A DNA stretch of 64,000 nucleotides, from positions 9,566-73,565 of the IMG/VR virus record IMGVR_UViG_3300046698_000515, one strand, 5' to 3'. The notes beneath the pieces were generated by a model. It was not told where the DNA came from, did not search any database, and saw only the letters and a program-made list of their open reading frames with translations. The translations under genes and the position numbers were made by a program. This document shows, piece after piece, positions 44,639 through 64,000 of the stretch. How positions within the stretch are numbered: position 1 is the first letter of the stretch; every line of letters begins with the position of its first letter. Source of the stretch: a virus.

Positions 44639-47600
44639 TTTTGAAACATTTTATCTTCTCGAATCTGTTTTTGATGATGCTTACACCCATTGGAAGATTG
44701 AAGCGGGTGTTGATCCTAGTGGAATAACAGGTGACACTATAGAAGAATACATCGACACATTCAAGATATTAAAACAACGTAACTTTCTAAAAGGATCAGA
44801 AGCAGATATTTCTCCATGGATTAAGAAACCTTTCAGTGATTTTAAAGCCTTTGTTGATGCTAAAAGTAAACAGCACGAGCAGAAAAGCGCCATCAAACGA
44901 ACAGAAGGAGATATTGAACGCGTATTTGAGAATGAATTTTGCACGATAGTCTGTCCTAATACATTTGAAGCTTCGAAGAAATACGGAGCGGGAACTAAAT
45001 GGTGTATAAGCGGAAATGTTATTCAACACTGGAAGAGCTATACAGAGAAGGGTACAAAATTCTACTTCATATTACCGAAGAATAATACACATAAATTAGC
45101 TGTGGCCGTTTATCAGAATAATTCTTCTAAAGAAGTGTATAATGAGCTCGATCAGACTATATCTATACAAAAATTTACTGCGCTATTAAAGCAGTATGCT
45201 ATTCCAAAGACAGTATTATTTACGAACGAAATGGATTGGGATAAATGGCTATTACAGCACAAGCACACTATTAATCCTGATGGAAGTGTAGATATAGATG
45301 GAGATATGAATCTATCTGAAATGAAGCTGAAGGAGCTTCCATTTAAGTTTGGAAAAGTAACAGGAAATTTTTACTGTTACAGCAATCAGCTCACGTCACT
45401 TCAAGGAGCACCCTCGAAGGTAAGAGGTGATTTTTACTGTTCTTACAATCAGCTCACGTCACTTCAAGGAGCACCTTCGGAGGTAAGAGGTGATTTTTAC
45501 TGTCATTGCAATCAGCTCACGTCGCTTCAAGGAGCACCCTCGGAGGTAAGAGGTGATTTTTACTGTTCTGACAATCAGCTCACATCACTTCAAGGAGCAC
45601 CTTCGGAGGTAGGAGGAGTTTTTTACTGTAATTACAATCAGCTCACGTCACTTCAAGGAGCACCCTCGGAGGTAAGAGGTGATTTTTACTGTTCTGACAA
45701 TCAGCTCACGTCACTTCAAGGAGCACCCTCGAAGGTAAGAGGTGATTTTTACTGTCATAGCAATCAGCTCACGTCGCTTCAAGGAGCACCTTCGGAGGTA
45801 AGAGGGGATTTTTACTGTTTTAGCAATCCAAAATTAAAACAAGCAGATATTGATAAATTAAAACAATTTTATAAAAATCAAAAAATGAAGAAGAAAAATA
45901 TAACTGAAGCATTTGAATTAGGAGATAAACCGGACATGTTCCATTCTTCTCGACAGAAGCTTTACAAGAAACCATTACCTGTCGAAGAAACTTTTCCTGA
46001 TTTAGGAGATACAACAAAAATGAAAAATTTTTCAGATTTTTATAACGAAAGACTCTTATTAGAGTTTAATGATGTAACTGTTAAGAAACTTATAGAAAAG
46101 TTTAAAACGGAGCAAAATAGTTTATCTAATGAAAATATTCTTTATTATTTACAACGTTTTGAACAATTAAAAAATAGTACTAAATTTGTTGAATTAATCA
46201 AAGATAAATTTCCAGAAATAACTATTCAAAATGATATATTTCAGTATACCTTTAAACAATTAGAATATGGAGTAGATCAATTTCCTAAAAATAATACGCT
46301 ACAACAAGCGCTACAACAAGTAAGCCCACAACAGAATCTAATCTTATTAGGAGAAAATGAAGGATTAAAAGTATATTATGCTAAAAATGAGCAGGGCTGT
46401 ATTGAAGTTAATAGTGGTGTGTTTGGTAATACAAAACCTTATTCATTTTGTGTTACACGGAAACATAATGGAATGTATGGAAGCTATCGATATGGAAAAC
46501 ATGAATCTTCTTTTTATTTTTTATATGATTCAACATTACGTGTAACAGATATTAAACATCTGTTAGTAATACAAGTTACTAAATGTAAAACATTTATTCT
46601 AACTTATGCAAATAATACCTATAATGAAGAAATAACATTAGAAGAATTATTAAAAATACAACCTAAATTAGCCCCTATTATTAATTTATTAACACATCAG
46701 AAATATAATGCTGAAGAAGCAATAGCTAAATGGGTTGCTAATCATGAATATTATAGTAGTATGCGTACTTATGAAGAGAAAAAAATGTGGTTAGAAATGC
46801 GCCCTCGCGGCTTAATACTTCAAGATTTTAAAACATTGCCAGATGACTTAAAGAATTTATGGTGTAATGTATATGATGATGGTACGTTTTCCTATATAAA
46901 TATAAATGAAATATTTAAATATATTTTTTTACACGAGCCAGCTTTAACAAAAAGATTTTTGCAAAGATTTTATAGACATGAATTTCATAAATTATGTTTT
47001 GAAGAGTTAGAGAAAATTTTACCTGCTAATTTAAAGCAAGAAGTAAAGGAAAATTATTTTGGTAAAGAAAATCTTGAAAAAATAAACACGTTAACAGATC
47101 CAATTGAACTTTTTGAACTATTAGCTAAACTTAATTATGCTACACTCAATTATGACACAGTTAATAGTAAATTCCCAAAAATTAGTATAATTAGAAATAA
47201 TAAAAAACTAGTAAATAAGAGGGCGGCAATTGAAACAGATTATAATAAGATAGAAAAATATTTACCATCTATAATACAGAGAAATATAAATAACATTAAA
47301 GGTAAGTTTAATATAAAATTTAATAAAATTTATCTTATACCTAACAAACCGTCACGATATGATATCTCACCTGCCTGGCTTTATTATATTTTAGGAACTA
47401 CAAAAAAAGGAAAAGATGTATTATATTATAGGCGCCAGGGAATAAACCCTCAATCAACATTTTCAAAATTTTTTATTAATGACAAAATGTATAAACTTGT
47501 GAATTTATTCAATAAAGATAATTTTGAACAAATGAAAAAAATAACAGAAGCATTTGAATTAGGAGATAAACCGGACATGTTCCATTCTTCTCGACAGAAG

Positions 47601-48683
47601 CTTTACAAGAAACCATTACCTGTCGAAGAAACTTTTCCTGATTTAGGAAATACTGCACAGAGATATATTGAATTTATCACAAGCGAAAGCTATAAAAAAG
47701 CTGTTGAAAGAATGGAAAGATACTTAGGAATGCAAGCAACAGGTGAGAATTTACCGCAAGCAATCCAACTAATTTTTAGCTCATACATGCAAGTAATACA
47801 ATTTCAACAAGGGCATGAGAAACAATTAGCAAAATTAGCATTGCAAACAGTTTTAGAATTAGAAGAGTTTAAATTATTTAAAGATCTATGTGATAAAGGA
47901 TACATTATAGTCGATGCTCAAATTGACACTCCTAACTTAGATAATGCATTATTACAAAGTGAAAAGCCAAAAGATAAGAAACAGTTGACTAAAACTGAAT
48001 TAGCAAATGTTAAAGCAGCACAACTCTTTACTTCTACGGATGAAAATGTATTGAAGAGGAAGTTTGCTAATATGATTTCACAAGGTAATGCAGTAAATAA
48101 ACTTTATTTGTTTCAATTAGCATCTGATAAGTTAAACGCAATGCATCCTAGATTAGTTAATTTATATGGCATTACTGCATTAGGAGCACAAATAGCGTAT
48201 TATGCACAACCTAATATTAAACTAAGTCGTGAAATGTTAGAAATGGCTCAAGTAGGATCTGAAGAAGTTACTCCTGAAAAGAATGGACCTGAAAAGAATG
48301 GAGTTTATAAGATTACTGCTCGTGCATCACTCTTTCCTTACTTAATTCATGAAATAGTTAAAGGATTTTATGATTATCTGTCAATGGATTTAGTACCTCA
48401 AGAAGAACTAGATAAGGAGACTATTGAGGATGAGATGGTAGATATAATGTCAGGTCCTGAATTATACAGCAAAATAACACAATTTATCCCTCAAGATAAG
48501 AACTACCTCACTCCGCTCGTGTATAAACTACTAATCAACAAACCTATAGCAACTATTAAACAAGTACTATATGGAGGAGGACAGGCCCAGAATATCTATA
48601 AGGCTTTAATAGGTGAAGCAGAAGCAGCAATGAAGAAGTTTAACGAACCAGAAGAACCTACGGATTATAATCCTAAATATTGA
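44625..48683 (+). CDS. polyprotein: module B (LRR), module A', core LIHEIVKG domain
   Basis: Leaders FETFYLLE|S, ITE|AF, FSDFYNERLLLE|FN, ITE|AF; module A' homologous to ORF 42893. Confidence 0.85.
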   Translation: MGTINFETFYLLESVFDDAYTHWKIEAGVDPSGITGDTIEEYIDTFKILKQRNFLKGSEADISPWIKKPFSDFKAFVDAKSKQHEQKSAIKRTEGDIERVFENEFCTIVCPNTFEASKKYGAGTKWCISGNVIQHWKSYTEKGTKFYFILPKNNTHKLAVAVYQNNSSKEVYNELDQTISIQKFTALLKQYAIPKTVLFTNEMDWDKWLLQHKHTINPDGSVDIDGDMNLSEMKLKELPFKFGKVTGNFYCYSNQLTSLQGAPSKVRGDFYCSYNQLTSLQGAPSEVRGDFYCHCNQLTSLQGAPSEVRGDFYCSDNQLTSLQGAPSEVGGVFYCNYNQLTSLQGAPSEVRGDFYCSDNQLTSLQGAPSKVRGDFYCHSNQLTSLQGAPSEVRGDFYCFSNPKLKQADIDKLKQFYKNQKMKKKNITEAFELGDKPDMFHSSRQKLYKKPLPVEETFPDLGDTTKMKNFSDFYNERLLLEFNDVTVKKLIEKFKTEQNSLSNENILYYLQRFEQLKNSTKFVELIKDKFPEITIQNDIFQYTFKQLEYGVDQFPKNNTLQQALQQVSPQQNLILLGENEGLKVYYAKNEQGCIEVNSGVFGNTKPYSFCVTRKHNGMYGSYRYGKHESSFYFLYDSTLRVTDIKHLLVIQVTKCKTFILTYANNTYNEEITLEELLKIQPKLAPIINLLTHQKYNAEEAIAKWVANHEYYSSMRTYEEKKMWLEMRPRGLILQDFKTLPDDLKNLWCNVYDDGTFSYININEIFKYIFLHEPALTKRFLQRFYRHEFHKLCFEELEKILPANLKQEVKENYFGKENLEKINTLTDPIELFELLAKLNYATLNYDTVNSKFPKISIIRNNKKLVNKRAAIETDYNKIEKYLPSIIQRNINNIKGKFNIKFNKIYLIPNKPSRYDISPAWLYYILGTTKKGKDVLYYRRQGINPQSTFSKFFINDKMYKLVNLFNKDNFEQMKKITEAFELGDKPDMFHSSRQKLYKKPLPVEETFPDLGNTAQRYIEFITSESYKKAVERMERYLGMQATGENLPQAIQLIFSSYMQVIQFQQGHEKQLAKLALQTVLELEEFKLFKDLCDKGYIIVDAQIDTPNLDNALLQSEKPKDKKQLTKTELANVKAAQLFTSTDENVLKRKFANMISQGNAVNKLYLFQLASDKLNAMHPRLVNLYGITALGAQIAYYAQPNIKLSREMLEMAQVGSEEVTPEKNGPEKNGVYKITARASLFPYLIHEIVKGFYDYLSMDLVPQEELDKETIEDEMVDIMSGPELYSKITQFIPQDKNYLTPLVYKLLINKPIATIKQVLYGGGQAQNIYKALIGEAEAAMKKFNEPEEPTDYNPKY
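45363..45827 (+). repeat. 63-bp (21-aa) LRR tandem repeat, 7.4 copies
   Basis: GDFYCxxNQLTSLQGAPSEVR. Confidence 0.95.
45906..46007 (+). repeat. 102-bp direct repeat, copy 1
   Basis: Identical to 47547-47648. Confidence 0.95.
47547..47648 (+). repeat. 102-bp direct repeat, copy 2
   Basis: Identical to 45906-46007. Confidence 0.95.
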
Positions 48684-50141: not shown

Positions 50142-50144
50142 AAA

Positions 50145-50495: not shown

Positions 50496-50498
50496 GAA

Positions 50499-51659: not shown

Positions 51660-51763
51660 ACAGTTTTGTTGTAATTATTTATGGAAAATACTAGTTAAAA
51701 ACTTAAACATTCATCTTAATTTAGAGTTGTTATTAATACTTTTACCAATAAATACTTATTGCC

Positions 51764-52289: not shown

Positions 52290-52853
52290 ATGGCAAGAAA
52301 AACAAAACAATGTTCACAGTGCAAAAAAATAAAGAAGATTTCTTCTTTTAATTGGTGTGTGTATAAAAATGGACAACAATATCCTCAAGCTAGATGTAAA
52401 ATATGTAATTCTGCAAGCTCAACAAAATGGATAAAAGAACATTTGTTAAATGAAAATCCAGATATCGCTTTAAAAGCTACTATAAATCAATTGTTTTACT
52501 ATTCAAAAACAAACGCCTATAATAAAAAACTTGATTTTAATCTAACAACAGAATTTCTATTAGAATTATACAAAAAACAAAATGGAAAATGTTTTTATAC
52601 AGGAGCTCAAATGAAATTAAATGGCATAGGGCTTAATAAAGATCCTCTTTATATATCATTAGACAAAGTAACCCCAGAACTTGGATATATTCAAGGTAAC
52701 GTTGTATTTTGTTGTCTCGGTATAAATTATTTAAAAGGTGTTCATAGTGTAGATGTATTATATAATACATTATTTACATTTTTTGATGGATGTATAATCA
52801 CAAATAAATTACCAGAAATCATAAAGGAAAAATTAGAATGTCACAACAATTAA
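52290..52853 (+). mobile_element. homing endonuclease-like (His-Cys/HNH)
   Basis: CSQC..CKIC; KQNGKCFYTG, ISLDK..GYIQGNV..CC..N; inserted between gp25 and gp6. Confidence 0.75.
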
Positions 52854-54670
52854 CAGACTTTACATTACCAACCGATGTATATGCAACGTTTGATGCAGTA
52901 TCATTAAAGCGATTAATAATTGATCGTTTAAATCAAACTAGTTTCTTCACAGATCAAAACTATGCAGGAAGTAATATTACTTCACTGATTGATATATTTT
53001 CTTTTAGTTATCATATATTACTCTATTTTTTAAATCAGACCAGTAGTGAAGCAATTTTTACTGAAGCACAACTTTATGAAAACATAAATCGAATTGTTAA
53101 AGCAATCGATTACAATCCAGTTGGTACCCAAACGAGTAATTTGACATTTACTGTATCGACTATAAATCCTAATACTACTGTTAGCACTTATACCATTCCA
53201 AGATATTCATTTATTAATACAAATGGCATGATATATTCGTTAAATGCTGATACTACTTTCACATATACTACATCTGGCATTCAACCTATTTTAGATTTAG
53301 GTAATTCAAATCTTCTATATCAAGGATTTTTTACTGAGTATCCTATTATAAATGCAACTGGTGAATCATTTGAGACTATTGTTTTACTTCCAGGTAGTGA
53401 TGTAATAGTTGATCATTTTAGTATCGATGTTTATATTAATCCAGTAGCAACTAGTACATGGGAACAATGGACAAGAACTTCTTCTCTATATCTTGAAGAT
53501 GCAGGTGCAAAAAAATATGAAGTACGCTTAAATGAAAATAAACATTACGAAATAAAATTTGGAAATGGTATAATTGGTGCACAATTAAATCCAGGAGATC
53601 AAATTGCTGTTTATTATTTAAAAAGTGAAGGTGCAGCAGGTCAAGTAGGTATTAATGCTATTAATAGTTCTTCAATGGTCCTTTATTCAACACCTCAATT
53701 TTTACAAATTTTTGATGATATATGTGATCAAAACACATTATACGTAACTGATACTCAAGTTAATTCATTAGTATTTGCAAATACAAATACATCAAGTCAA
53801 TTCTTTTCTGGCGAAACAGTTGAAGATATTCGTCAACGAGCACCAAAAGTTTTCACATCACAATATCGTTTAGTAACTACAAGTGATTATGAAAACTTTA
53901 TTATTCAAAATTATGGAAATATTATAGCAGATGTTCAAGTAGTTAACAATTGGAAATATATAGACGGACATATGAAATATTTGCTTGATACGTTACAATT
54001 ATCAACACCAAATGGTAATCCGAATATTTTGCTTAATAATATTCTCTTTGCTGATACTTGCAATTTTAATAACGTTTACATATATGCAGCACCAATTCAA
54101 GGTGCTGCCAATAGTGCAACTATTCGTACCAATTATTTAACATCAGCACAGAAAAAGAGTATTATTATTGCTATAAAAGACATTAAAACAATTACTACTG
54201 AAACGTTAATAATGGATCCAGTTTATATTGCAGTTGATCTTGGTACTTTAGATACTAATGAAGAATTAAATACATCAGTTGCAGATAACACTCAATTAGT
54301 TATTAATCGTGGAAGTGATTCAACAAGTAATGTAACTTCTATTCAAAATGCAGCTTATAATATTTTGTTAAATTATTTTCAAGCAAGTTCTTTAGGACAA
54401 ACACTTGATATTACAAGTATTATAAACAGCATTCTTAGTCTTAATGGAGTAACATCAATTTATACTCAACGAATTGATAATCCGAGTATTAGAACGATTG
54501 GATTAAGTTTACTTTTATGGAACCCTATTTATCCAGATTTAGATATAACTATTACATCGTCAAATATAACATTCCCGTATTTTAAATATCCTTATCTTTT
54601 TGACACAACAAAATTATTAAACAAAATAGTAGTAGTTACAGAACCTTCTACTGAAAATACTAGAACCTAA
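52838..54670 (+). CDS. baseplate wedge protein gp6-like
   Basis: FTDQNY.GSN, IKFGNG..G, ETVEDIRQRAP..F.SQYRLVT..DYE. Confidence 0.88.
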   Translation: MSQQLTDFTLPTDVYATFDAVSLKRLIIDRLNQTSFFTDQNYAGSNITSLIDIFSFSYHILLYFLNQTSSEAIFTEAQLYENINRIVKAIDYNPVGTQTSNLTFTVSTINPNTTVSTYTIPRYSFINTNGMIYSLNADTTFTYTTSGIQPILDLGNSNLLYQGFFTEYPIINATGESFETIVLLPGSDVIVDHFSIDVYINPVATSTWEQWTRTSSLYLEDAGAKKYEVRLNENKHYEIKFGNGIIGAQLNPGDQIAVYYLKSEGAAGQVGINAINSSSMVLYSTPQFLQIFDDICDQNTLYVTDTQVNSLVFANTNTSSQFFSGETVEDIRQRAPKVFTSQYRLVTTSDYENFIIQNYGNIIADVQVVNNWKYIDGHMKYLLDTLQLSTPNGNPNILLNNILFADTCNFNNVYIYAAPIQGAANSATIRTNYLTSAQKKSIIIAIKDIKTITTETLIMDPVYIAVDLGTLDTNEELNTSVADNTQLVINRGSDSTSNVTSIQNAAYNILLNYFQASSLGQTLDITSIINSILSLNGVTSIYTQRIDNPSIRTIGLSLLLWNPIYPDLDITITSSNITFPYFKYPYLFDTTKLLNKIVVVTEPSTENTRT

Positions 54671-57600
54671 TGAGTACAGCAACTATATCTCCTGGTTTAG
54701 CTGGATATACTGGAAATATATCAGTATTTCAGTTTACATCTTATCTAGACCCGTCTTCTGATCAAACTCGAGTTCTTTGGGATTTTGGAGATGGTACTTA
54801 TTCTACAACTCCTGTTGCAAGTCATGTTTATAATTGGCCTGGTATTTATACTGTTAATTTAACAACATATGGTTCAGGTGGAACTGTTTATCAAAATACG
54901 TTTACTCAAAATATTTCTATCCAAAATCTTATTCCAGATATAATAACTGTTTCACCTAATATAATAATTAATATTCCTGCTGGACGTCTTTCACTTCCTC
55001 TTTATGCTACTCGTCAGAATAGTTGGCAATCATATCCTGCTGTTTCGGCTGACGGTTATACATTTAATTTTTTTGTTAGTGGTTCACTTTCTAATAAACT
55101 TAATTTAAATAATCTTCCAACATCAAAATGGGCACACATTGATAGAACTTGGAGATTTGTTGTATCAGCAACTACATTAGATGGAGATATACAATATTTA
55201 CCTGTCGATAATATTGTTACTTCAAATACTGAAATATACTATAAAAATGTAAACCAACAAAATGTAAACCAACAGCCAGTTCGTTGTAATGCAACAGATT
55301 TGAGCGCTGTATTTGTTGGTACATCAGGTATAGCAACTTTTTATTATATTGATGATACGCCAAAAAATTATGATTCAACTGTACCACCAGTTTTCTTTTA
55401 CATAAGTCTTGATACTACAAAATTTCCTGATTCATATCAAGTTATAACATCTCAAATTGCTCAAAATACTTTTTATCCTGAACTTGAATTATTTCAACAC
55501 ATAAAGGGAGTTATTTCTGCACGTATAAGATATAATGCAGCTGGTGAATTAATTTTCACAAGTTGCGGATTAACAGAAATACCTATATCACAACATAAAT
55601 GGCAAAATACTGAAATTCCATTTTTTATTAATTTTGTTGATGAAACTGGTGCTATCGTTGTTAATTATCCACCACTTACTATCAATACAAATTCTCAATC
55701 AAGTTCAGCTTTAGATGTAGTTAATTTACAATTAGTTGATAGTAATTACAATCCAATTTCAGCTGATTTTTTTACTACAGTAGATGAACAATTACCTCCT
55801 TCTATATCTGGTACATTTAGAGGATATTTTATTCCTTATGAAATTGCTGATGGTGCTACTCTTCTAGGTAGTGTTACTGTTTTTAATCCACCAAGTATTC
55901 AATTTGATACAACTGTAGGATGGGTTGCATATCCAGATACAGATACCATTTTTAAAGTAACATCTGAAGAATCATCATTTTATACATACACATCAGCAGG
56001 TCCTCAACTTAATTTATCAAAACAAGAAACTGATACATATACATCTAATAAACTGGAAAGTATTTTAGCAATTGCTGTAGCACCAAGTGCATCACCTGAT
56101 ATAAGTGTCGATCCTTATATTTGGCTCGGTGATTCAAATAGTGATACATTAATAAAATTTAGTACACAAGGACAAATTTTAAATACTATTTCTTTAGACA
56201 CACTTTTAAATGCAAATAGTGATGATAAATTTTCTCCTTCTTATATCTCATTAGATGTCAATAATAATATTTGGGTTACATTATATGATCATGCAGAGAC
56301 TATTAAAATAGATGTTAATACAGGTAATTTGCTATTAACAGTAGTTCCATCAGTTACAAATGTTAGTTTTACATCTGCTAATATTACTAATACGTTTGGT
56401 GGTAGCAATCTTGTTGAACCAGGTATTGTTGATGTTGATCTCGAAAATAATCCATGGATATGTTATACTCATCCATTATGTGCCTTTATTGAAAAATATG
56501 ATGGAACAACTGGCTCTATTTTAAGTACTTATCCGCTTCCTCAAGGAGTATCACCTACGGATATGGTAATTGACCAATTCAATAATGTCTATGTTATTGC
56601 TGGATTTTTTACTTCAATAAATCCAGAAACGTTTACTATTGTTTCACCAATTACAGCACAAAAATTATTAAAAGTAAATGATAATTTTGGGCAATTTCAA
56701 TTTACTTTTAACACATCGATTTCAAGTTTTCTAACAAGCGGATATCACTATACTTTTACTGCTAATAATCTCTCTGATTCTTATTATAATGGTACTCATT
56801 TAGTAGAATCTATAAGTGGTAATAGTATTACTGTTGAACCTCATCCTATGGCTTACGAATTTGCAAGTACTGTAAGCGTTAGTGTAAGTTCATTTAATCC
56901 ATTATTGTCAGCATCACAAGGTACACTATCATCAACATTTACTTGTTCAGATAGACTATATAAAATAACTCCAAACGGAGTTATGAATATGATAGATGGA
57001 TTCTATGCACCATCTTATATTACAGTTGATATTTCTCAAAATGTTTGGATATCGCATTGCTTAACTCGAATAAGCAAAGTTAACGTAAATACCAATTATA
57101 TCTCAACTAATTTTACAGTTGGTTCTACAGAATACGTATTAGAAACAGTACAGGAAAGTAATTATATTATTAACGATCCGACAAACTTTTTAATTCGATT
57201 ATTAGTTGATAATCCCCATGATCGAGTATTTCAACACATTGAAGGTATCACTTGTGATACATTTGGTATTTTATGGGTTATTAATGATTTTGAAGGAAGG
57301 ATGTATTATATACCAACAGATAATCTTACTATATCAGCTACTATTACAACTGATTTTCCTCCACCTCTTTCTGGAGATTATGATTTTTTAACTCGTAAGA
57401 CATATCAAGCATTTGGAGATTGGAATGGAATGCGTTGGATAAATAAATATTCAGGAGTGGAAACAATTCAAACATTAAGTGGATCTACTACGTTTGATAT
57501 TCTTCCTGCATCTGGGTTATATACTATTGCAAAAATAAATGAAGATTTTGATGCATCTGAAATGTATAAATCACTTCGTTATACAGATCGATTACTTAAT

Positions 57601-58332
57601 GCTCAAAATTTATTTGATAATTTTATTGGACAATCAGTAGGAGATAATAATGCTGATGCTACAACACTAGGTAAACTTATCTATGAAAGAATAGCAAATT
57701 TTCCAAGTAATATAGCTGATGTTGATACTTGTGATGTTACTGCATTATATGCATTATGTGATGAATTAAATATTCCAATTGATAATTATCAATTTTTATT
57801 TCCTGCAAATTTAAAACGTATTTTTAATTTAGTTTCAATAAAACATAGTAAACTTTGGGGTGATCGAAATAAATTTAATCGAAATTTTAAAAACAATTTT
57901 TCACAAAATACTAACTACGCAAAAAATATTGGACCTCAGATTGATGTATTAACTTATACTGTATCTGCTGGTACAAATTTAGTATTTAATCAATTATTTG
58001 ATAATGAATTTAAATTAATAACCACCATGGTTTTAAATGCATATGTATCAGGTGGTGCAACATATACCTATCCATTAAGTACATATAATCAAAATTGGGG
58101 CTGGGGATTAGAAAATGGAATAACGGGTCCTGAAATAGTAAAATATTATAACGTTTATGAGTATGTCCCTACTTATGAAAATAGCCAAGAAGAAGGAGTT
58201 ATTGATTGGCAAAATCCTTTAAATAATTTAGTAGAAACTGCTAGTGGAATAGATGTTTGGTTAAAGGATGATGGGATTGTAGATACCCTGTTAGATTATC
58301 AAATTCGTAAAGGGTTACGAATGTTTATTTAA
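54670..58332 (+). CDS. large baseplate/tail protein (PKD plus beta-propeller repeats)
   Basis: WDFGDG..HVY.WPG.YTV PKD motif; repeated D..N.IWV blades. Confidence 0.75.
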   Translation: MSTATISPGLAGYTGNISVFQFTSYLDPSSDQTRVLWDFGDGTYSTTPVASHVYNWPGIYTVNLTTYGSGGTVYQNTFTQNISIQNLIPDIITVSPNIIINIPAGRLSLPLYATRQNSWQSYPAVSADGYTFNFFVSGSLSNKLNLNNLPTSKWAHIDRTWRFVVSATTLDGDIQYLPVDNIVTSNTEIYYKNVNQQNVNQQPVRCNATDLSAVFVGTSGIATFYYIDDTPKNYDSTVPPVFFYISLDTTKFPDSYQVITSQIAQNTFYPELELFQHIKGVISARIRYNAAGELIFTSCGLTEIPISQHKWQNTEIPFFINFVDETGAIVVNYPPLTINTNSQSSSALDVVNLQLVDSNYNPISADFFTTVDEQLPPSISGTFRGYFIPYEIADGATLLGSVTVFNPPSIQFDTTVGWVAYPDTDTIFKVTSEESSFYTYTSAGPQLNLSKQETDTYTSNKLESILAIAVAPSASPDISVDPYIWLGDSNSDTLIKFSTQGQILNTISLDTLLNANSDDKFSPSYISLDVNNNIWVTLYDHAETIKIDVNTGNLLLTVVPSVTNVSFTSANITNTFGGSNLVEPGIVDVDLENNPWICYTHPLCAFIEKYDGTTGSILSTYPLPQGVSPTDMVIDQFNNVYVIAGFFTSINPETFTIVSPITAQKLLKVNDNFGQFQFTFNTSISSFLTSGYHYTFTANNLSDSYYNGTHLVESISGNSITVEPHPMAYEFASTVSVSVSSFNPLLSASQGTLSSTFTCSDRLYKITPNGVMNMIDGFYAPSYITVDISQNVWISHCLTRISKVNVNTNYISTNFTVGSTEYVLETVQESNYIINDPTNFLIRLLVDNPHDRVFQHIEGITCDTFGILWVINDFEGRMYYIPTDNLTISATITTDFPPPLSGDYDFLTRKTYQAFGDWNGMRWINKYSGVETIQTLSGSTTFDILPASGLYTIAKINEDFDASEMYKSLRYTDRLLNAQNLFDNFIGQSVGDNNADATTLGKLIYERIANFPSNIADVDTCDVTALYALCDELNIPIDNYQFLFPANLKRIFNLVSIKHSKLWGDRNKFNRNFKNNFSQNTNYAKNIGPQIDVLTYTVSAGTNLVFNQLFDNEFKLITTMVLNAYVSGGATYTYPLSTYNQNWGWGLENGITGPEIVKYYNVYEYVPTYENSQEEGVIDWQNPLNNLVETASGIDVWLKDDGIVDTLLDYQIRKGLRMFI

Positions 58333-58773: not shown

Positions 58774-58774
58774 A

Positions 58775-59347: not shown

Positions 59348-59432
59348 ATTGTATATGTTGATTAAATAGAATTGCTGAAGTCATATTAAATATTTATAGT
59401 ATAAAACATAAAAACAATCAATAAGTATTAAT

Positions 59433-61931
59433 ATGGCGAATTATTCAGCAACGCAAGGTTCTGTACCCGGGCAGTCATTCGGAACGCAATTAATGCGACA
59501 CGTACAGTCACGATTACCTTATCAAGGGGTAACGATGATTCAAAACCTTGAAGAGCTTAATCCTAAATATCGTGATTTCTTTAAAGTTGGCTCTCTTAGA
59601 CATGAAGCACTAGCAAAACAATCTATCTCTGGTTCAGTACCTGACGAGTTTAATAGTCCAGTTGGAGTTGGAATTGACAAAAATTATTTACAATATCTCT
59701 ATGCTAACGTAGATTCAGATAAAGCAAAGAGAATGCGTGAATATCGTGTTATGGCTGCATTTTCAAAAGTTGCGGATGCACTTGATGAAATTTGTGACGA
59801 GATTATTAACGATGATGAAAATGGTGAAATAGCAATTTTAAAACTAAAAGGAAAAGAATTTCAAACAAATGTTACTAAAGAATTAACTAAAGAATTTCAG
59901 CGTATTGTTGAATATTTTGATTTTAGTAATAAAGGTTGGGAATATTTTAGACATTTATTAGTCGATGGAGAATTATTTTTTGAACATATTATCCATAAAG
60001 ATTACAAAAATGCAGGTATTTTAGGTATTTTAAATATTCCTTGTGAGATTATTGATCCCATTTATGATAATGTTCAAAACTTTATCATAAAAGGATTCAT
60101 TCTTAAAAAGCCTGAAATTGTAGAAAATAAAGGAATGAAGCGTTCTCCTATTAATACTAAAGTTGAACTTATTCCTATGGATCGTAATCAAGTAACTTAT
60201 ATTCATAGTGGTATTTGGAATGATGATAAGACAATGCGTTTACCATTTATTGAAAATGCTCGTAGGGCATATCGTCAATTATCATTAATTGAAGATTCAA
60301 TTATAATTTATCGATTAGTTCGCGCTCCTGAACGTTTAGTGTTTGATGTTGATGTAGGAAATATGGCAGCGCCAAAAGCTGAAGCATATCTCAAAAAATT
60401 AATGCATCAATATTGGCAGAAGAAAACTTTTGATACTGGAAGTGGAACTGGAACGATTAATGCATTTAATCCACAAACAATGCTTGATAGTTTTTGGTTT
60501 GCAAAAAGAGCAGGTAGTGAAGGTACAAAAGTAACGATGTTGCCTGGTGGTTGTTTAGCAATGGATACAAGAATACCTCTATTGGATGGCAGAATTTTAA
60601 CTTTATCTGAAATGACTGAAGAATATAAAGTAGGTAAGCAAAATTGGATTTATTCATGTAATCCTAGTTCAGGTGAAATTGTACCTGGTAAGGTTAGTTG
60701 GGCTGGTGTTACACAAGAATCCGCTGATGTAATGAAACTTACATTTGATAATGAAGAAACACTTATATGTACACCAGATCATATGTTTCCTATTATTGGT
60801 AAGGGATTTGTTTCTGCTAATGAGTTAGAAGTAAATGAGAGTATGATTCCGTTTAATATAAGGGAACATAATCATCCAGCATATAAAAGTAAATCACAAT
60901 ATCATCAAATTTATCAAAATAATTCCAGAAAATGGGAATTTACACACCGTATAGTTGCAGAATTTATGAAGAAACAGAATAAACATAATGAATATGTTTA
61001 TTCTGAAAAATATAAAGATTTTAATTATACCAGCTGGGGACATTTAAGAAGAGAACATAGTCTGTTTAATCATAAAATTGTTAAAATTGAAAGGTTATCT
61101 GAGAAAATTCAGGTAGGTACGTTAACGATTGATAAGGAAGAACAGTATCATAATTTTCATACTTTTGCTCTTGATTGTGGAATATTTACAAAGAATTCCA
61201 ATTTGGGACAACTTGATGACCTCTACTATTTCGCTAAGGAACTCTATCGTTCTCTTAAGGTTCCAACTAATCGTGTTGATCCAGAAAGTCGCTTTAATGA
61301 TGGAACTGAAATTCTTCGTGAAGAATTAAAATTTGCTAAATTTATTATTCGCTTACAAAAAGCAGTTGCTACTAGCTTAAAATCAATGTATATTACCCAC
61401 CTCAAGCTAAGGGGGTTATGGGAAATATATGAATTAAAGGAAGATAATATTTTTGTTGAACTTAACCCACCTAATAATTTTTATGAGTTAAGAGAGCAAC
61501 AAAAATTTGAATTAAAAGCAAATAATTTTAATACAATGACTTCTAACCAAATGATTTCACAATCATATGCTCAAAAGAAATATTTGGGTTGGAAGGATGA
61601 AGATATTGCTGCTAATCGTGAATGGCTGAAGAAGGATGCTGCACTGAAGTTTGAATTGATGCAGACAGAAAATGCTGGACCAAATTGGAGAGCACATTAT
61701 GATCCTAATGCTGTAATGGCTGGTACAGAACCCGGAGCAGGCGGAATCCCAGGTGGAGTTCCACCGGGTGGTGCAAGTCCGTTAGGAGGAATGCTTCCAT
61801 CATTTGGCCCTCCACCTAAGGAAGGTGAGGAAGGTGAAGAAGGAGCAGAAGGTGCACCAGAGCCTGTAAGAAATACTCCTCCGTTAGGTAAGCCTTCACC
61901 TAACCAGAAGCAACCTGGTAAGAATAAGTAA
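59433..61931 (+). CDS. portal protein (T4 gp20-like) containing an intein
   Basis: ALDEICDE, LVDGELF, RQLSLIEDS.IIYRLVRAPER.VF.VDVGN, LY.SLKVP..R, REELKF.KFI.RLQ. Confidence 0.93.
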   Translation: MANYSATQGSVPGQSFGTQLMRHVQSRLPYQGVTMIQNLEELNPKYRDFFKVGSLRHEALAKQSISGSVPDEFNSPVGVGIDKNYLQYLYANVDSDKAKRMREYRVMAAFSKVADALDEICDEIINDDENGEIAILKLKGKEFQTNVTKELTKEFQRIVEYFDFSNKGWEYFRHLLVDGELFFEHIIHKDYKNAGILGILNIPCEIIDPIYDNVQNFIIKGFILKKPEIVENKGMKRSPINTKVELIPMDRNQVTYIHSGIWNDDKTMRLPFIENARRAYRQLSLIEDSIIIYRLVRAPERLVFDVDVGNMAAPKAEAYLKKLMHQYWQKKTFDTGSGTGTINAFNPQTMLDSFWFAKRAGSEGTKVTMLPGGCLAMDTRIPLLDGRILTLSEMTEEYKVGKQNWIYSCNPSSGEIVPGKVSWAGVTQESADVMKLTFDNEETLICTPDHMFPIIGKGFVSANELEVNESMIPFNIREHNHPAYKSKSQYHQIYQNNSRKWEFTHRIVAEFMKKQNKHNEYVYSEKYKDFNYTSWGHLRREHSLFNHKIVKIERLSEKIQVGTLTIDKEEQYHNFHTFALDCGIFTKNSNLGQLDDLYYFAKELYRSLKVPTNRVDPESRFNDGTEILREELKFAKFIIRLQKAVATSLKSMYITHLKLRGLWEIYELKEDNIFVELNPPNNFYELREQQKFELKANNFNTMTSNQMISQSYAQKKYLGWKDEDIAANREWLKKDAALKFELMQTENAGPNWRAHYDPNAVMAGTEPGAGGIPGGVPPGGASPLGGMLPSFGPPPKEGEEGEEGAEGAPEPVRNTPPLGKPSPNQKQPGKNK
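60552..61196 (+). mobile_element. cis intein (215 aa) in portal
   Basis: LPGG|CLAMDT..CTPDH..HTFAL..GIFTKN|SNLG. Confidence 0.9.
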
Positions 61932-61950
61932 GCTTTTACTTTATATTCAC

Positions 61951-61958
61951 TATAAATA
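61951..61958 (+). promoter_or_regulatory. T4-type late promoter
   Basis: TATAAATA 5 nt before the gp13-like ATG. Confidence 0.75.
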
Positions 61959-61963
61959 ATTGT

Positions 61964-62911
61964 ATGATTATTTGTAATGAACAGTTGACTCCGTTAAGCG
62001 CAATTAAAGGTACTTACCTAAATTCACGGATTACTTCCTATCATAGATTAGCAAAACGAATTGGATATGAATTAGGCGCTCCTCTGATTCAACTAGAAGC
62101 TCACCAAAATGTTGTGTTTGAATTTATTAGCATGGCTGTTGAGCGCTTTACGAAATATGCAGGTTATACCCAGGAATATTTAGTTTTTAATTCTGATCTG
62201 TATGAACCTGGTGTGGGTGTACCTCTTGATACTTTATTCTCTCTAACTCCCGCTATTAATGCCTTGTATACTAATTCACATTCGGAAGTGGATGATTTAT
62301 ATGTGGGTGGTTTGTCTAGTGCAAGTTTGTCAAGTCTTTCTGCGGCTGCGTATGATTATGATTTGGATTCGTATAGGAAGGTAATGGATGTTTTTAATTT
62401 TGAGGAGGGGGCTAGTTCGGGAATTAATACCCTATTTACTTTGGAACAAAGTTTAGCGCAGCAGACTTATTTTGCTTATTCACAAGGCAACTATGGTTTT
62501 GATTTATGTACGTGGTACTGTATGAAGGAATGGTTGAAGTTGAGAGAAAAGATTCTTGCTACTTTAATTGATTGGCAGTTCAATCAAGAGTCACAATACC
62601 TAAATTTAATACCTGCGCCTACTCCTGGACAACCTTACTGGGGTATAATTGGTTGTTATATAACCAAAACTATAAAAGATCTACTCAAAGAGCCCTGGAT
62701 TCAAGACTATGCCTTAGCTCTTACAAAAATAGCTGTAGCACGTACACGCGGAAAGTTTAATGGTACACAATTATTTGGTGGAGGTTCATTAGAATGGAAT
62801 ACTTTGCTAACAGAAGGAATTCAGGAGAAAAAAGATTTGGAAGAAAAATTACTTACTGGTGCATCTGCAGCCTGGGGAGATTCCGAACCGCCAAAATTCA
62901 TGATAGGTTGA
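61964..62911 (+). CDS. neck protein gp13-like
   Basis: ELGAP.IQLE, WIQDYALALTK....TRGKF....FGGG.L, PPKF.IG. Confidence 0.88.
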   Translation: MIICNEQLTPLSAIKGTYLNSRITSYHRLAKRIGYELGAPLIQLEAHQNVVFEFISMAVERFTKYAGYTQEYLVFNSDLYEPGVGVPLDTLFSLTPAINALYTNSHSEVDDLYVGGLSSASLSSLSAAAYDYDLDSYRKVMDVFNFEEGASSGINTLFTLEQSLAQQTYFAYSQGNYGFDLCTWYCMKEWLKLREKILATLIDWQFNQESQYLNLIPAPTPGQPYWGIIGCYITKTIKDLLKEPWIQDYALALTKIAVARTRGKFNGTQLFGGGSLEWNTLLTEGIQEKKDLEEKLLTGASAAWGDSEPPKFMIG

Positions 62912-62933
62912 CGGATATGATGAAAAATTTATT

Positions 62934-64000
62934 ATGAACAGCGACACCAATCTCCTCCGCGAAGCCTATCAACTCATCCTTGAATCCACTTTTGATAATG
63001 CTTATACTCATTGGAAAGCAGAAACAAATACTGACACTATTGAACAATATATTGATACATTTAAGATATTAAAACAAAGAAATTTCTTAAAAAGATCAGA
63101 AGCAGATATTTCTCCGTGGATTAAACGTCCTTTTAGTGAGTTCAAAGTATTTGTTGATGCTAAAAGTAAACAGCACGAGCAGAAAAGCGCCATCAAACGA
63201 ACAGAAGGAGATATTGAACGCGTATTTGAGAATGAATTTTGCACGATAGTTTGTCCGAATACTTTTGAAGCTTCGAAGAAATACGGAGCAGGGACGAAAT
63301 GGTGCATAAGCGGAAATGTTATTCAGCACTGGAAGAGCCATACAGAGAAGGGTATAAAATTCTACTTTATACTTCCTAAACATAACACACATAAACTAGC
63401 TGTTGCTGTTTATCCTAATAACACTTCTAAGGAAATATATGATGAATTAGATAAAGTGATTTCGGTGCAAAAATTCACTGCACTGTTAAAGCAGTATGCT
63501 ATTCCAAAGACAGTTCTCTTCACTAACGAAATGGATTGGGACAAATGGCTATTACAGCACAAGCACACTATTAATCCTGATGGAAGTGTAGATATAGATG
63601 GAGATATGAATCTATCTGAAATGAAGCTGAAGAAGCTTCCGTTTAAATTTGGAAAAGTAACAGGAAATTTTTACTGTTACAACAATCAGCTCACGTCACT
63701 TCAAGGAGCACCCTCGAAGATAAGAGGTGATTTTTGCTGTCATTACAATCAGCTCACGTCACTTCAAGGAGTACCCTCGAAGGTAAGAGGTGATTTTTAC
63801 TGTTCTTACAATCAGCTCACGTCACTTCAAGGAGCACCCTCGAAGGTAAGAGGTGATTTTTACTGTTATTGCAATCAGCTCACGTCGCTTCAAGGAGCAC
63901 CCTCGAAGGTAAGAGGTGATTTTTACTGTCATTACAATCAGCTCACGACACTTCAAGGAGCACCCTCGAAGGTAGGAGGAAATTTTTACTGTGATTACAA
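62934..64000 (+). CDS. second copy of module B (LRR protein), runs off window end
   Basis: MNSDTNLLREAYQLILE|STFDNAYTHWK..; near-identical to 44690-45800 at offset 18300; absent from the ORF track because it has no stop in the window. Confidence 0.9.
   Translation, partial: MNSDTNLLREAYQLILESTFDNAYTHWKAETNTDTIEQYIDTFKILKQRNFLKRSEADISPWIKRPFSEFKVFVDAKSKQHEQKSAIKRTEGDIERVFENEFCTIVCPNTFEASKKYGAGTKWCISGNVIQHWKSHTEKGIKFYFILPKHNTHKLAVAVYPNNTSKEIYDELDKVISVQKFTALLKQYAIPKTVLFTNEMDWDKWLLQHKHTINPDGSVDIDGDMNLSEMKLKKLPFKFGKVTGNFYCYNNQLTSLQGAPSKIRGDFCCHYNQLTSLQGVPSKVRGDFYCSYNQLTSLQGAPSKVRGDFYCYCNQLTSLQGAPSKVRGDFYCHYNQLTTLQGAPSKVGGNFYCDY
63663..64000 (+). repeat. 63-bp LRR tandem repeat, at least 5.3 copies
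   Basis: GDFYCxxNQLTSLQGAPSKVR. Confidence 0.95.

What the first reader, a model, noticed from the sequence alone, without database searches (positions are those of the whole stretch)
45363..64000. LRR arrays hypervariable at two adjacent codons with an NNT-NNC signature
Seen: in 14 near-identical 63-bp repeats over two loci, the residues in C-x-x-N are YS, SY, HC, SD, NY, SD, HS, FS and YN, HY, SY, YC, HY, DY. The first codon is NNT (TAC in each first repeat) and the second is always NNC, so bases 1-2 vary while the wobble base is fixed. Known: DGRs mutate adenines of AAY codons and give this pattern, and these positions lie next to the LRR ligand-binding strand. Against: other synonymous As (CAA, GGA, GTA) are invariant, and no reverse transcriptase or template repeat is visible here. 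Inference: a phage variable-LRR binder diversified by a DGR-like process or by repeat shuffling under strong selection, probably virion-delivered.
Basis: partly seen in the sequence, partly recalled or inferred. Interest (0 to 1): 0.82.

Follow-up and report, generated by a model that had tools for sequence, protein, structure and literature searches.

The report
Phage LRR binders, two variable residues
Two related genes of an uncultured T4-like phage encode leucine-rich-repeat binding proteins whose near-identical repeats differ almost only at two adjacent surface residues, a pattern made by ordinary repeat copying plus selection and not by a mutagenic retroelement.

Summary
Fourteen 63-bp units in two arrays carry exactly the listed residue pairs, with NNT (TAC in each first unit) and NNC codons.

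The DGR route fails every test I could run:
- No reverse transcriptase in the 73.5-kb record or in 5 relatives' records.
- No template copy.
- No adenine-specific mismatch pattern.
- The variable pairs are inherited position by position between the two paralogues, and 4 of 4 are identical in an independent contig.

All 14 first codons lie within one base of TAT. The second codons centre on TAC, so Tyr-Tyr ancestry and a narrow residue alphabet explain the fixed wobble base.

The array scaffold is homogenised (dS 0.11 between arrays, against 0.67 in the adjoining domain). The two codons have dN 0.63. This fits concerted evolution with diversifying selection.

The repeats are IpaH/SspH/InlJ-type LRRs. 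The proteins are modular: a short T4-like leader and x-E|A junctions, in a head-gene setting. They are probably packaged in the capsid and cleaved, which is inferred, not shown.

This scan has already noted the same kind of phage LRR family on other DNA. Interest is moderate.

The parts
42893..44638 (+). Upstream gene (581 aa, P0168). It is a paralogue of the middle module of gene A. It carries the leader-like motif (aromatic..aromatic..LLLE) at its N-terminus and again at aa 495.
   Evidence: BLASTP against gene A aa 426-992: 32% identity over 490 aa, E 1e-77. Motif hits. No Pfam or PHROG family.
44625..48683 (+). Gene A (1352 aa, P0001), a modular protein: leader, W-C domain, LRR array, junction, P0168-like module, junction, conserved 380-aa-family module.
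44625..45269 (+). Leader (about aa 1-13, ending ..FYLLE|S) followed by an uncharacterised domain with an invariant Trp-Cys pair (W126, C127).
   Evidence: Alignments A1 and A2 show W126 and C127 invariant. AF2 pLDDT is 82. No PDB fold match: 0 with E<=0.001. 22 BFVD viral matches with E<=0.001. PHROGs 28193 and 17056, function unknown.
45369..45872 (+). LRR array A: 8 units of 63 bp. The hypervariable codons lie at 45378-45383 + 63n (n = 0-7).
45893..46012 (+). Copy 1 of a 120-nt direct repeat, encoding the junction ..ITE|AFELGDKPDMFHSS..PDLG.
   Evidence: 98% identical to 47534-47653. It is homologous to the N-terminus of the stand-alone 380-aa family.
46013..47533 (+). Middle module, paralogous to the upstream gene P0168. 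It starts with ..NFSDFYNERLLLE|FN.
   Evidence: A possible second, diverged W-C-type domain: hhalign probability only 6%, E 0.006, so inconclusive.
47534..48683 (+). Copy 2 of the junction repeat, then the module homologous to a conserved stand-alone phage protein of about 375-395 aa.
   Evidence: 44 shorter homologues, 35-52% identical. The Glu of ITE|A is invariant in 16 of 16 aligned sequences. The family gene lies within 7 kb of a portal gene in 42 of 80 loci.
59433..61931 (+). T4-type portal protein (gp20) interrupted by an intein. It marks the head-gene block.
   Evidence: Pfam Portal_T4 3.7e-95 and Intein_splicing 1.5e-10.
61964..62911 (+). 315-aa gene between the portal gene and gene B. 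A TATAAATA motif sits at 61951-61958.
   Evidence: phrog_211, C-terminal part, 2.6e-17. Motif; it is not enriched in the window as a whole.
62934..64000 (+). Gene B (P0002, at least 355 aa, cut by the contig end), a paralogue of gene A's N-terminal part with leader ..AYQLILE|S. LRR array B lies at 63669-64000, with hypervariable codons at 63678-63683 + 63n (n = 0-5).
   Evidence: Its continuation is seen in L005.

Best explanation
Genes A and B are old paralogues in a T4-like phage. Each encodes a target-binding LRR solenoid of the 21-residue bacterial (IpaH/SspH/InlJ-like) type.

How the arrays evolve. They change by ordinary DNA processes. Units are duplicated and lost, and units are copied within and between the two arrays by gene conversion or unequal recombination. 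This keeps the 57-nt scaffold almost identical. The two residues just before the ladder asparagine (LRR positions 7-8, at the edge of the concave binding face) are kept different from unit to unit by point substitution under diversifying selection.

Why the codons read NNT-NNC. This is a by-product of descent and selection. Every first codon is TAT or one step from it, and the second codons centre on TAC. Any non-synonymous, non-stop change of a Tyr codon must fall in bases 1-2. The family also accepts mainly Y, N, D, H, S, G, C and F at the concave positions, all of which are NNY-encoded. The wobble base simply stays ancestral. The variable residues are germline characters passed on stably, not made anew in each generation.

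Function (inferred). The proteins are modular: a short leader, an uncharacterised W-C domain, the LRR, and swappable C-terminal modules joined by x-E|A/S motifs. They look like substrates of the T4-type prohead protease, so they are probably loaded into the capsid, cut into pieces and injected with the DNA. The LRR would then bind a host (or competitor) target in an arms race.

My odds: evolutionary mechanism about 0.85; packaged, cleaved and injected about 0.5.
For: Shown.
1. The variation is concentrated in 4 of 63 columns.
2. The scaffold is homogenised. Synonymous divergence of scaffold codons between arrays A and B is 0.108, against 0.670 in the adjoining N-terminal domain of the same two genes (dN 0.088 there). 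Array-specific markers also exist: all 5 B units have AAG at column 49, and 5 of 7 A units have GAG.
3. The two codons have dN 0.63 against scaffold dS 0.11.
4. Inheritance is stable. The units show positional homology: A1~B1, A2~B3, A3~B4 (linked TCG marker), A4~B5 (linked GGAGGA marker) and A5~B6. In four of these five pairs the two codons differ by 0-1 nt. L005, an independent contig 99.2% identical over 253 nt, has 4 of 4 identical di-codons.
5. The same phenomenon recurs in a second scaffold lineage. L005 units 4-7 differ from units 1-3 at 10-14 of 57 scaffold sites. Among units 5-7 the scaffold differs at only 0-2 sites, while the di-codons differ at 2-4 of 6.
6. Codon neighbourhood. All 14 first codons are within 1 nt of TAT, which is the best centre; AAT is worse (summed distance 20 against 13). 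The second codons are best centred on TAC. A relative carries GAA, a wobble change, at the first codon.
7. It is a family trait. In 1050 units from 120 homologues the entropy peaks are x-F, F-x-C and the two C-x-x-N positions (3.0-3.3 bits). In 233 units of distant loci the third base at these positions is Y in 93-98%, against 50% in scaffold codons. Concave positions use Y/H/N/D far more than Q/K/E, and the loop positions do the reverse.
8. Fold. AF2 gives mean pLDDT 87, about 97 in the LRR. Foldseek top hits are the IpaH7.8, SspH1 and IpaH1.4 LRR domains. phmmer gives SspH2 1.3e-18 and InlJ 2.4e-10.

Inferred, for packaging.
- Leaders ending in hydrophobic-x-E|S/A occur at residue 10-17 in most N-termini of the family: 20 of 23 by a loose pattern, and these are homologues, so not independent.
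- The same leader type heads small LRR proteins that lack the W-C domain (MKYLLE|S in L006 and L007).
- A stricter leader motif occurs 3 times in the window, all at module starts in P0168 and gene A, against 0.24 expected.
- The junction Glu is invariant in 16 of 16 sequences. It marks the N-terminus of the stand-alone 380-aa family and the fusion points in P0001 and P0134.
- In L005, gene B lies between the portal gene and the head maturation protease and major head protein genes.
- The 380-aa family lies within 7 kb of a portal gene in 42 of 80 loci.
- For T4, the passages I read in PMC9026906 say that a 10-residue capsid-targeting sequence loads internal proteins, that residues 4 and 7 matter for targeting and residues 8 and 10 for processing, that gp21 cuts after Glu, and that internal proteins vary between T4-like phages, perhaps through arms races.
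Against: - The record is only about 34% complete by CheckV, so a reverse transcriptase elsewhere in the genome cannot be excluded.
- No raw reads were available. The Logan contigs laid on array A are 263 nt or shorter and drop rare variants, so within-population variation at the two codons was not measured.
- Units with 0 of 57 scaffold differences and 4 differences in the di-codon need either very strong selection or conversion tracts that spare 6 nt. Neither was demonstrated, so a local mutational bias is not excluded.
- dN/dS between repeat units is not a proper phylogenetic test when recombination is present.
- Unit order in array A rests on one short-read assembly.

Against packaging:
- There are no proteomic data.
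- The AF2 model places the leader in one long helix (residues 6-29) continuous with the first helix of the domain.
- The late-promoter motif TATAAATA is not enriched: 21 found against 16.3 expected, and 14 of 100 shuffles reach 21.
- Gene A borders baseplate genes, and the L004 copy follows a tail-fibre-like gene. Both fit a tail or adhesin role as well.
Confidence: 0.75

Rival explanations
1. A diversity-generating retroelement, or a DGR-like templated mutator, rewrites the two codons from an AAT-AAC template.
For: - The codons are NNT/NNC with bases 1-2 variable.
- The residue set (Y, S, H, N, D, C, F) is what AAY mutagenesis can give.
- The NNY bias at the variable positions is family-wide.
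- The record is 34% complete, so an RT could lie elsewhere.
Against: - No RVT_1 match in the own record or in 5 relatives' records (0 of 5).
- No template copy.
- No unit gives adenine-specific mismatches. The best share is 0.62, with 25 or more non-A mismatches, whereas the published criterion read in PMC5006420 passages asks for at least 5 A mismatches and at most 1 non-A.
- 11 of 16 scaffold A columns are invariant, and A columns are not more variable than others (Fisher p = 0.29).
- The codons cluster around TAT and TAC, not AAT and AAC. All 14 first codons fall in the one-step cross of TAT; under uniform NNT this has probability about 9e-6.
- The pairs are inherited between paralogues and are identical in an independent contig.
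- The fold is an LRR, not the C-type lectin or Ig fold of known DGR targets.
Confidence: 0.02
2. The LRR proteins are external virion parts, such as receptor-binding or adhesin modules on the baseplate or fibres. The variable face would follow host surface variation rather than intracellular targets.
For: - Gene A lies next to the baseplate-wedge block.
- The related gene in L004 directly follows a 1272-aa protein with tail-fibre and tail-spike PHROG matches.
- Y/N/D/S/H-rich faces suit carbohydrate binding (general knowledge).
- InlJ, a surface protein, is among the closest solved LRRs.
Against: - There is no trimerisation or fibre-type domain, and no tail PHROG or Pfam match in genes A or B.
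- Gene B and the 380-aa family sit in the head block near the portal and protease genes.
- The leader and the x-E|A junctions resemble prohead-protease substrates.
- The closest solved LRRs by fold are intracellular effector domains.
Confidence: 0.18
3. The pattern is an assembly artefact: short reads from a mixed population were collapsed or chimerically joined into arrays that exist in no single genome.
For: - The contig ends inside array B. L005 starts inside the array, and the 6.9-kb contig of P0123 gives a gene product that begins just after array A.
- Logan contigs over array A are fragmented.
- Variant forms co-occur in the same runs.
Against: - The same unit type with different di-codons is seen in independent contigs and proteins (L004, L005, P0003, and 120 homologues).
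- B3-B6 have the same order and di-codons in L005.
- Both ORFs stay open through the arrays.
- An artefact could scramble unit order but could not create the column-specific variation.
Confidence: 0.05

Closest known systems
LRR substrate-recognition domains of the injected bacterial effectors IpaH/SspH (e.g. SspH2 3g06, SspH1 4nkg, IpaH7.8 7wjq), and Listeria internalin J (3bz5)
   Same: - A 20-22-residue bacterial-type LRR with N-x-L-T-S-L and a Cys or Leu ladder.
- Sequence matches: SspH2 1.3e-18 and InlJ 2.4e-10.
- Best structural matches have TM about 0.6 on the target.
- In those proteins the LRR binds the target of a delivered protein.
   Different: - No NEL ligase domain or other Pfam domain.
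- It is phage-encoded.
- The repeats are near-identical at the DNA level, with variation confined to two residues.
- The N-terminal W-C domain and the cleavable-looking junctions have no counterpart.
Hypervariable LRR families found by repeat mining (Altae-Tran et al. 2020, PMC10392669; sections 6 and 7 read): Flavobacterium psychrophilum tandem LRR loci and Dictyostelium purpureum LRR proteins
   Same: - The D. purpureum LRRs have two consecutive hypervariable residues, dominated by Y, D, H, N and by D, Y, C, N, with pairs such as YD, YY and YC. The authors compare them with the TALE di-residue.
- The F. psychrophilum loci vary in repeat number and sequence by recombination, without mobile elements.
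   Different: - Those are cellular proteins: a secreted or surface bacterial protein and amoebal proteins.
- Here the genes are in the head and baseplate region of a T4-like phage, carry a leader and protease-type junctions, and are fused to other modules.
Phage T4 internal proteins (IPI, IPII, IPIII, Alt) with their capsid-targeting sequence (PMC9026906, passages read)
   Same: - A short N-terminal leader ending in hydrophobic-x-Glu.
- A phage with a T4-type portal and, in the near-identical relative, a T4-type head maturation protease.
- Genes that vary between related phages.
   Different: - No sequence homology of the mature parts.
- Much larger and multi-modular.
- Packaging and cleavage are not shown here.
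Diversity-generating retroelements (Bordetella phage BPP-1 Mtd; definition as in PMC5006420, passages read)
   Same: A phage binding protein with variation concentrated at bases 1-2 of NNY codons.
   Different: No RT, no template repeat, no adenine-specific mismatches, an LRR rather than a C-type lectin fold, and stable inheritance of the variants.
TAL effector repeats with repeat-variable di-residues (as summarised in the PMC10392669 introduction)
   Same: Near-identical tandem repeats with two adjacent hypervariable residues per repeat, with repeat number and order varying between copies.
   Different: The fold is different (LRR, not the TALE helical repeat). There is no evidence of nucleic-acid binding or of a one-repeat-one-unit code.

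Membership tests
Diversity-generating retroelement | A reverse transcriptase gene near the variable region | tested here: not met
   PF00078 gave 0 matches in the 73,565-nt record and in 0 of 5 relatives' records. All records are fragments (5-46% complete), so absence from the whole genome is not proven.
Diversity-generating retroelement | A template repeat about 90% identical to the variable region, usually non-coding | tested here: not met
   Only the two arrays match each other. Outside them there are only matches of 14 nt or less. A protein-level search found only the two loci.
Diversity-generating retroelement | Mismatches between template and variable region fall at template adenines | tested here: not met
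   Taking each of the 12 units as template, the best A share is 0.62, with 25-31 non-A mismatches. 11 of 16 scaffold A columns are invariant.
Bacterial-type leucine-rich repeat (IpaH/SspH/InlJ-like subtype) | A periodic LxxLxLxxNxL-type motif of 20-22 residues | tested here: met
   21-residue units reading F-x-C-x-x-N-x-L-T-S-L. Pfam LRR_4 is below its cut-off for P0002 (19.3 bits against 27) but above it in homologue P0006 (47.9 bits).
Bacterial-type leucine-rich repeat (IpaH/SspH/InlJ-like subtype) | A solenoid fold similar to solved LRR domains | tested here: met
   AF2 pLDDT is about 97 over the array. Foldseek PDB top hits are IpaH7.8, SspH1 and IpaH1.4 LRRs. phmmer gives SspH2 1.3e-18 and InlJ 2.4e-10.
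IpaH/SspH NEL E3-ligase effectors | A C-terminal NEL ubiquitin-ligase domain | tested here: not met
   No Pfam family anywhere in P0001, even at E<=10 on its parts. Only the LRR part matches the solved chains.
T4-type capsid-targeted internal proteins | A short N-terminal leader ending in L/I-x-Glu | tested here: met
   Gene A has ..FYLLE|S at residue 13, and gene B has ..QLILE|S at residue 17. 20 of 23 family N-termini fit a loose pattern; these are homologues, so not independent. This is a resemblance by sequence only.
T4-type capsid-targeted internal proteins | The phage has a T4-type prohead protease and the gene lies in the head block | tested here: met
   In L005, which continues gene B at 99.2% identity, the gene is followed by a head maturation protease (phrog_207, 1.2e-47) and a major head protein. 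The window's own record ends before that point.
T4-type capsid-targeted internal proteins | The protein is present in the capsid, cleaved after Glu, and ejected | not testable with these tools
   This needs virion proteomics or a protease assay.
PcfJ-like protein (PF14284) | A match to the family profile | tested here: not met
   No Pfam hit for aa 1-215 even at E<=10. hhalign of the domain profile against the N-termini of 16 PF14284-bearing homologues gave probability 0.2%. The only positive signals are weak structural matches to proteins named PcfJ-like in BFVD (E 2e-4 and weaker, TM 0.24-0.37) and an Atlas lead (score 0.89, family on 33% of members).
TALE-like repeat-variable di-residue proteins | Near-identical repeats with two adjacent hypervariable residues | tested here: met
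TALE-like repeat-variable di-residue proteins | A one-repeat-to-one-unit recognition code on a linear polymer | not testable with these tools
   No ligand is known.

The most novel reading that the evidence does not exclude
The arrays are a programmable recognition device carried inside the phage head. Each repeat's di-residue would read one unit of an extended host ligand (a glycan, peptide strand or nucleic acid), much as a TALE di-residue reads one base. The phage would re-aim the injected protein, and the modules cleaved from it, by shuffling and point-editing units. That would be a phage counterpart of LRR-guided injected bacterial effectors.
Probability: 0.06. Interest if true: 0.85.

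Novelty: new variant of a known kind. Interest (0 to 1): 0.45.

Why it matters
The result removes a false DGR lead. It also gives a simple rule for similar cases: NNY-only variation at the binding positions of young repeats follows from Tyr-type ancestral codons and a narrow residue alphabet.

It adds to a picture that my four paper searches did not find in print. Many T4-like and larger phages carry families of LRR binders with a fixed scaffold and a fast-changing face. Here these are fused through protease-type junctions to conserved genes of the head region.

If the proteins are injected, they would be a large and diverse class of phage effectors aimed at host targets. They would also offer a natural minimal-alphabet binder scaffold.

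Tried and rejected
- **DGR tests.** All negative.
- **Megablast of gene A against GenBank phages.** No match.
- **Read-level population variation.** Only Logan contigs were on offer, with no raw reads. Those laid on 44900-46300 from runs X1-X4 are 263 nt or shorter in the array. Most 'other letters' there are paralogue B or the L004-type variant laid on A. Nothing can be said about rare variants, unit order or uncovered parts.
- **PcfJ membership of the N-terminal domain.** Pfam and hhalign are negative.
- **PDB fold search of that domain.** 0 matches at E<=0.001.
- **Second W-C domain in the middle module.** hhalign probability 6%, inconclusive.
- **ESM Atlas for aa 1040-1352.** No usable hit.
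- **PDB, Pfam and PHROG searches of the 380-aa family and P0168.** Nothing meaningful.
- **Single-sequence locus search for the C-terminal module.** It found none; the alignment-based search then worked.
- **Late promoter motif TATAAATA.** Not enriched (21 against 16.3 expected). One copy sits just upstream of the 61964 gene.
- **L004 as an allele of gene A.** Rejected, because its flanks share no DNA with the window. It is another locus or another phage.

Full report
**Setting.** The window is the last 64 kb of a 73,565-nt viral record that CheckV rates about 34% complete. It is a distant T4-like phage.
- It has a T4-type portal gene with an intein (Pfam Portal_T4 3.7e-95). The best tblastn relatives are cyanophage portals at about 33% identity.
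- It has baseplate-wedge genes, a clamp loader, and a weak match (1.5e-08) to a baseplate hub/tail lysozyme family.
- G+C is about 30%.

**The observation.** Tandem Repeats Finder reports two arrays of period 63, at 45367-45828 and 63667-64000.
- The first codon is NNT in 12 of 14 units and TAC in the two first units. The second codon is NNC in 14 of 14.
- Over the 12 complete units, bases 1-2 of the two codons have a mean pairwise difference of 0.545 per site, against 0.057 at the other 57 sites.
- These four columns hold 38% of all pairwise differences and are four of the five most variable columns. For a prespecified set that ranking has probability about 8e-6, or about 2e-4 after allowing for 20 adjacent codon pairs.
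- Units A1, A6 and B3 are identical at 57 of 57 scaffold sites but differ at 4 sites in the di-codon (A1 against A6 and B3).
- One caveat: the record ends inside array B. L005 begins inside the same array, and another contig gives a gene product that starts just after array A. Assemblies evidently break at these repeats.

**Is it a DGR?** The definition I used comes from passages of PMC5006420: a variable region in a gene, a template repeat about 90% identical nearby, a reverse transcriptase, and adenine-specific mismatches. None of these is met.
- RVT_1 finds nothing in the whole record, nor in the records of five relatives (0 of 5). All of these are fragments.
- Two consecutive units searched against the whole record find only the arrays themselves, plus chance matches of 14 nt or less.
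- With each unit taken in turn as template, the best share of mismatches at template adenines is 0.62, with 25-31 non-adenine mismatches.
- Eleven of 16 consensus-A scaffold columns never vary. A columns are not more variable than the others (5 of 16 against 7 of 41, p = 0.29).

**What explains NNT-NNC?**
- Every one of the 14 first codons is TAT or a single step from it. TAT is the best centre (summed distance 13), and AAT is clearly worse (20).
- The second codons are best centred on TAC: 6 identical, 5 one step away, 3 two steps away.
- From a Tyr codon the only wobble changes are synonymous or stop. Amino-acid change therefore has to fall in bases 1-2, and the wobble base stays ancestral.
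- The relative L005 has GAA (Glu) at the first codon, which is a wobble change from GAT, so the rule is not absolute.
- The bias is also a family property. In 233 units of distant loci the third base at the four variable positions is T or C in 93-98%, against 50% in scaffold codons.
- In 1050 units of 120 homologues the concave positions use Y/H/N/D (283-651 units per position) far more than Q/K/E (41-106). The loop positions do the opposite. This reflects selection on residue type by structural position.

**How the arrays evolve.**
- The N-terminal domains of the two genes are old paralogues: dS 0.67 and dN 0.088.
- The scaffold codons of the arrays have dS of only 0.108 between arrays, 0.152 within A and 0.063 within B. 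The di-codons have dN 0.63.
- The scaffold is therefore being homogenised within arrays and between two loci 18 kb apart, while the two codons stay diverse.
- Array-specific markers (Lys in all B units, Glu in most A units) point to within-array homogenisation.
- Linked synonymous markers still reveal positional homology: A1~B1, A2~B3, A3~B4, A4~B5 and A5~B6. In four of these five pairs the di-codons differ by 0-1 nt. The variable residues were therefore largely in place before or during exchange between the paralogues, and they are inherited.
- L005, an independent contig, overlaps the last 253 nt of the window at 99.2% identity with 4 of 4 identical di-codons. The two mismatches are scaffold singletons.
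- L005 also continues the array with a second block of units. That block's scaffold differs from the first at 10-14 of 57 sites, mostly synonymous. Within the block the scaffold is identical (0-2 differences), while the di-codons differ at 2-4 of 6. The process has thus run at least twice.
- Unit number differs between copies: 8 in gene A, at least 6 in gene B, 5 in L004, and 8 visible in L005 (its contig starts inside the array; joined to the window's B1-B2 that would make about 10), including terminal units.
- Taken together this is concerted evolution with diversifying selection on two exposed residues. The selection itself is inferred from the rate contrast. A local mutational bias cannot be formally excluded.

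**What the repeats are.**
- AlphaFold2 on an alignment of 27 sequences gives a confident model: mean pLDDT 87, and about 97 across the array.
- Its best PDB matches are the LRR domains of IpaH7.8, SspH1 and IpaH1.4, solved in complex with their host targets.
- By sequence the best solved relatives are SspH2 (1.3e-18) and internalin J (2.4e-10).
- There is no NEL ligase domain or any other Pfam domain. The resemblance is to the LRR subtype, not to those effector families.
- In LxxLxLxxN numbering the variable pair is positions 7-8. Across the wider family the four entropy peaks are positions 3, 5, 7 and 8 (3.0-3.3 bits). These are the usual ligand-facing positions of LRRs, which I take from established LRR knowledge. 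I could not inspect model coordinates.

**The rest of the proteins.**
- The first 215 residues form an uncharacterised domain with an invariant Trp-Cys pair.
  - It has no PDB fold match.
  - It has 22 matches among predicted viral structures. These include proteins fused to LRR or ankyrin repeats, a 'structural protein' of Pseudomonas phage PA5oct (E 2.5e-5), and weaker hits to proteins named PcfJ-like.
  - Pfam and a profile-profile test do not support PcfJ membership.
- Gene A is a concatenation of modules.
  - After the LRR cap comes a 120-nt segment that recurs 1641 nt downstream at 98% identity.
  - Between the two copies lies a module 32% identical (E 1e-77) to the gene immediately upstream, P0168.
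  - After the second copy lies a module that in other large phages is a separate protein of about 375-395 aa. I found 44 such homologues, 35-52% identical.
- The duplicated segment is the N-terminus of that stand-alone family.
  - The stand-alone proteins begin with a few residues and then x-E|A-I-D-T-G.
  - This Glu is invariant in 16 of 16 aligned sequences. It also sits at the fusion point in P0001 and in another fusion, P0134.
  - The same ..NITE|A/V junction follows the LRR cap in L004 and L005, after which the C-terminal modules differ.
- A leader of the type aromatic..aromatic..LLLE| heads P0168, recurs inside it, and heads the middle module of gene A. That is 3 hits against 0.24 expected by shuffling.
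- Looser versions head gene A, gene B and most homologues. They also head small LRR proteins without the W-C domain in L006 and L007.

**Why I think packaging is likely.**
- In T4, a 10-residue N-terminal sequence loads internal proteins into the prohead and is removed by gp21, which cuts after Glu. Such proteins differ between T4-like phages, perhaps through arms races (PMC9026906, passages read).
- Here the leaders and junctions end in hydrophobic-x-Glu.
- Gene B lies just downstream of the portal gene. In L005 it is followed by a head-closure gene, a head maturation protease (phrog_207, 1.2e-47) and the major head protein.
- The 380-aa family lies within 7 kb of a portal gene in 42 of 80 loci, and of the protease in 16 of 80.
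- This is circumstantial.
  - The leader is modelled as part of a long first helix.
  - The late-promoter motif is not enriched.
  - Gene A borders baseplate genes, and the L004 copy follows a tail-fibre-like gene.
- I put packaging and cleavage at about 0.5, and an external or adhesin role at about 0.18.

**Comparison with what is known.**
- The nearest published parallels I could read are in Altae-Tran et al. 2020 (PMC10392669, sections 6 and 7).
  - Flavobacterium psychrophilum has tandem LRR loci that vary by recombination.
  - Dictyostelium purpureum has LRR proteins with two consecutive hypervariable residues rich in Y, D, H, N and C, which the authors liken to the TALE di-residue.
- Four full-text searches listed no description of phage LRR families of this kind.
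  - Their terms covered PcfJ with LRR and phage; capsid-targeting sequence and prohead protease with leucine-rich; LRR with bacteriophage, virion or ejection protein and hypervariable; and DGR with LRR.
  - The library lacks most subscription journals, and supplements were closed.
- The family is very large: 3865 proteins at E<=1e-5 among the 7998 candidates scored.
- Earlier notes of this scan describe the same kind of phage LRR genes on other DNA. Those notes include the same conclusion about a fixed wobble base, a T4-like leader, and InlJ as the closest structure. I reached the non-DGR reading and the leader idea before opening those notes. I then checked the InlJ, PcfJ and paper leads myself.

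**Verdict.**
The 'repeat shuffling under selection' half is supported. 'Virion-delivered' is plausible but unproven.
- This is a new variant of a known kind: hypervariable LRR binders, here phage-borne, leader-tagged, and fused to head-region modules through protease-type junctions.
- Interest is 0.45.

Noticed in passing
window 59433-61931 (+): The T4-type portal gene is interrupted by an intein. Pfam Intein_splicing covers residues 381-576, with Portal_T4 on both sides.
   Followed up: no
window 52290-52853 (+): An HNH/endonuclease VII-type gene (phrog_1035, 5.7e-20) sits between the gp25-like and gp6-like baseplate wedge genes and overlaps the start of the latter. It is probably a homing endonuclease.
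   Followed up: no
window 45893-46012 and 47534-47653: A 120-nt direct repeat, 98% identical, lies inside one ORF and brackets a 1.6-kb module. It encodes the N-terminus of a conserved stand-alone phage protein family, so it marks a recent module insertion or duplication.
   Followed up: yes
window 42893-44638 and 46013-47533: The gene upstream of gene A is a paralogue (32% identity, E 1e-77) of gene A's middle module. In relatives L014, L015 and L017 a homologue of this module matches about 1.9 kb upstream of the 380-aa family gene, in the same orientation; whether the two are separate genes there was not checked.
   Followed up: partly
L006 and L007 (IMG/VR loci): Very large tandem arrays of small LRR genes, with about 100 units per 12-13 kb locus. 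Each gene starts with MKYLLES and ends with a conserved NPLPQLI...DEFRF tail, across all three frames of one strand.
   Followed up: partly
L012-L091 (80 loci): A conserved, unannotated phage protein family of about 380 aa. At least 553 relatives were confirmed in IMG/VR, with no Pfam, PHROG or PDB match. It lies within 7 kb of the portal gene in 42 of 80 loci.
   Followed up: partly
window 54670-58332 (+): A 1220-aa protein after the gp6-like gene has an N-terminal PKD domain (4.4e-11) and no PHROG match. It is possibly a baseplate or fibre component.
   Followed up: no
window 64000 (record end); L005 position 1; P0123: Three independent contigs begin or end at these LRR arrays, so short-read assemblies break there and the genes are under-represented as full-length calls.
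   Followed up: partly
window 18001-22000: A stretch with higher G+C (0.36-0.39, against about 0.30 elsewhere).
   Followed up: no
window 44900-46300 in runs X1-X4: Contigs of the L004-type variant (FDCSS first unit, alternative C-terminus after ..ITEAFE) co-occur with the window's form in the same peat-metagenome runs. It is either a third paralogue in the unseen part of the genome or a co-existing strain.
   Followed up: partly
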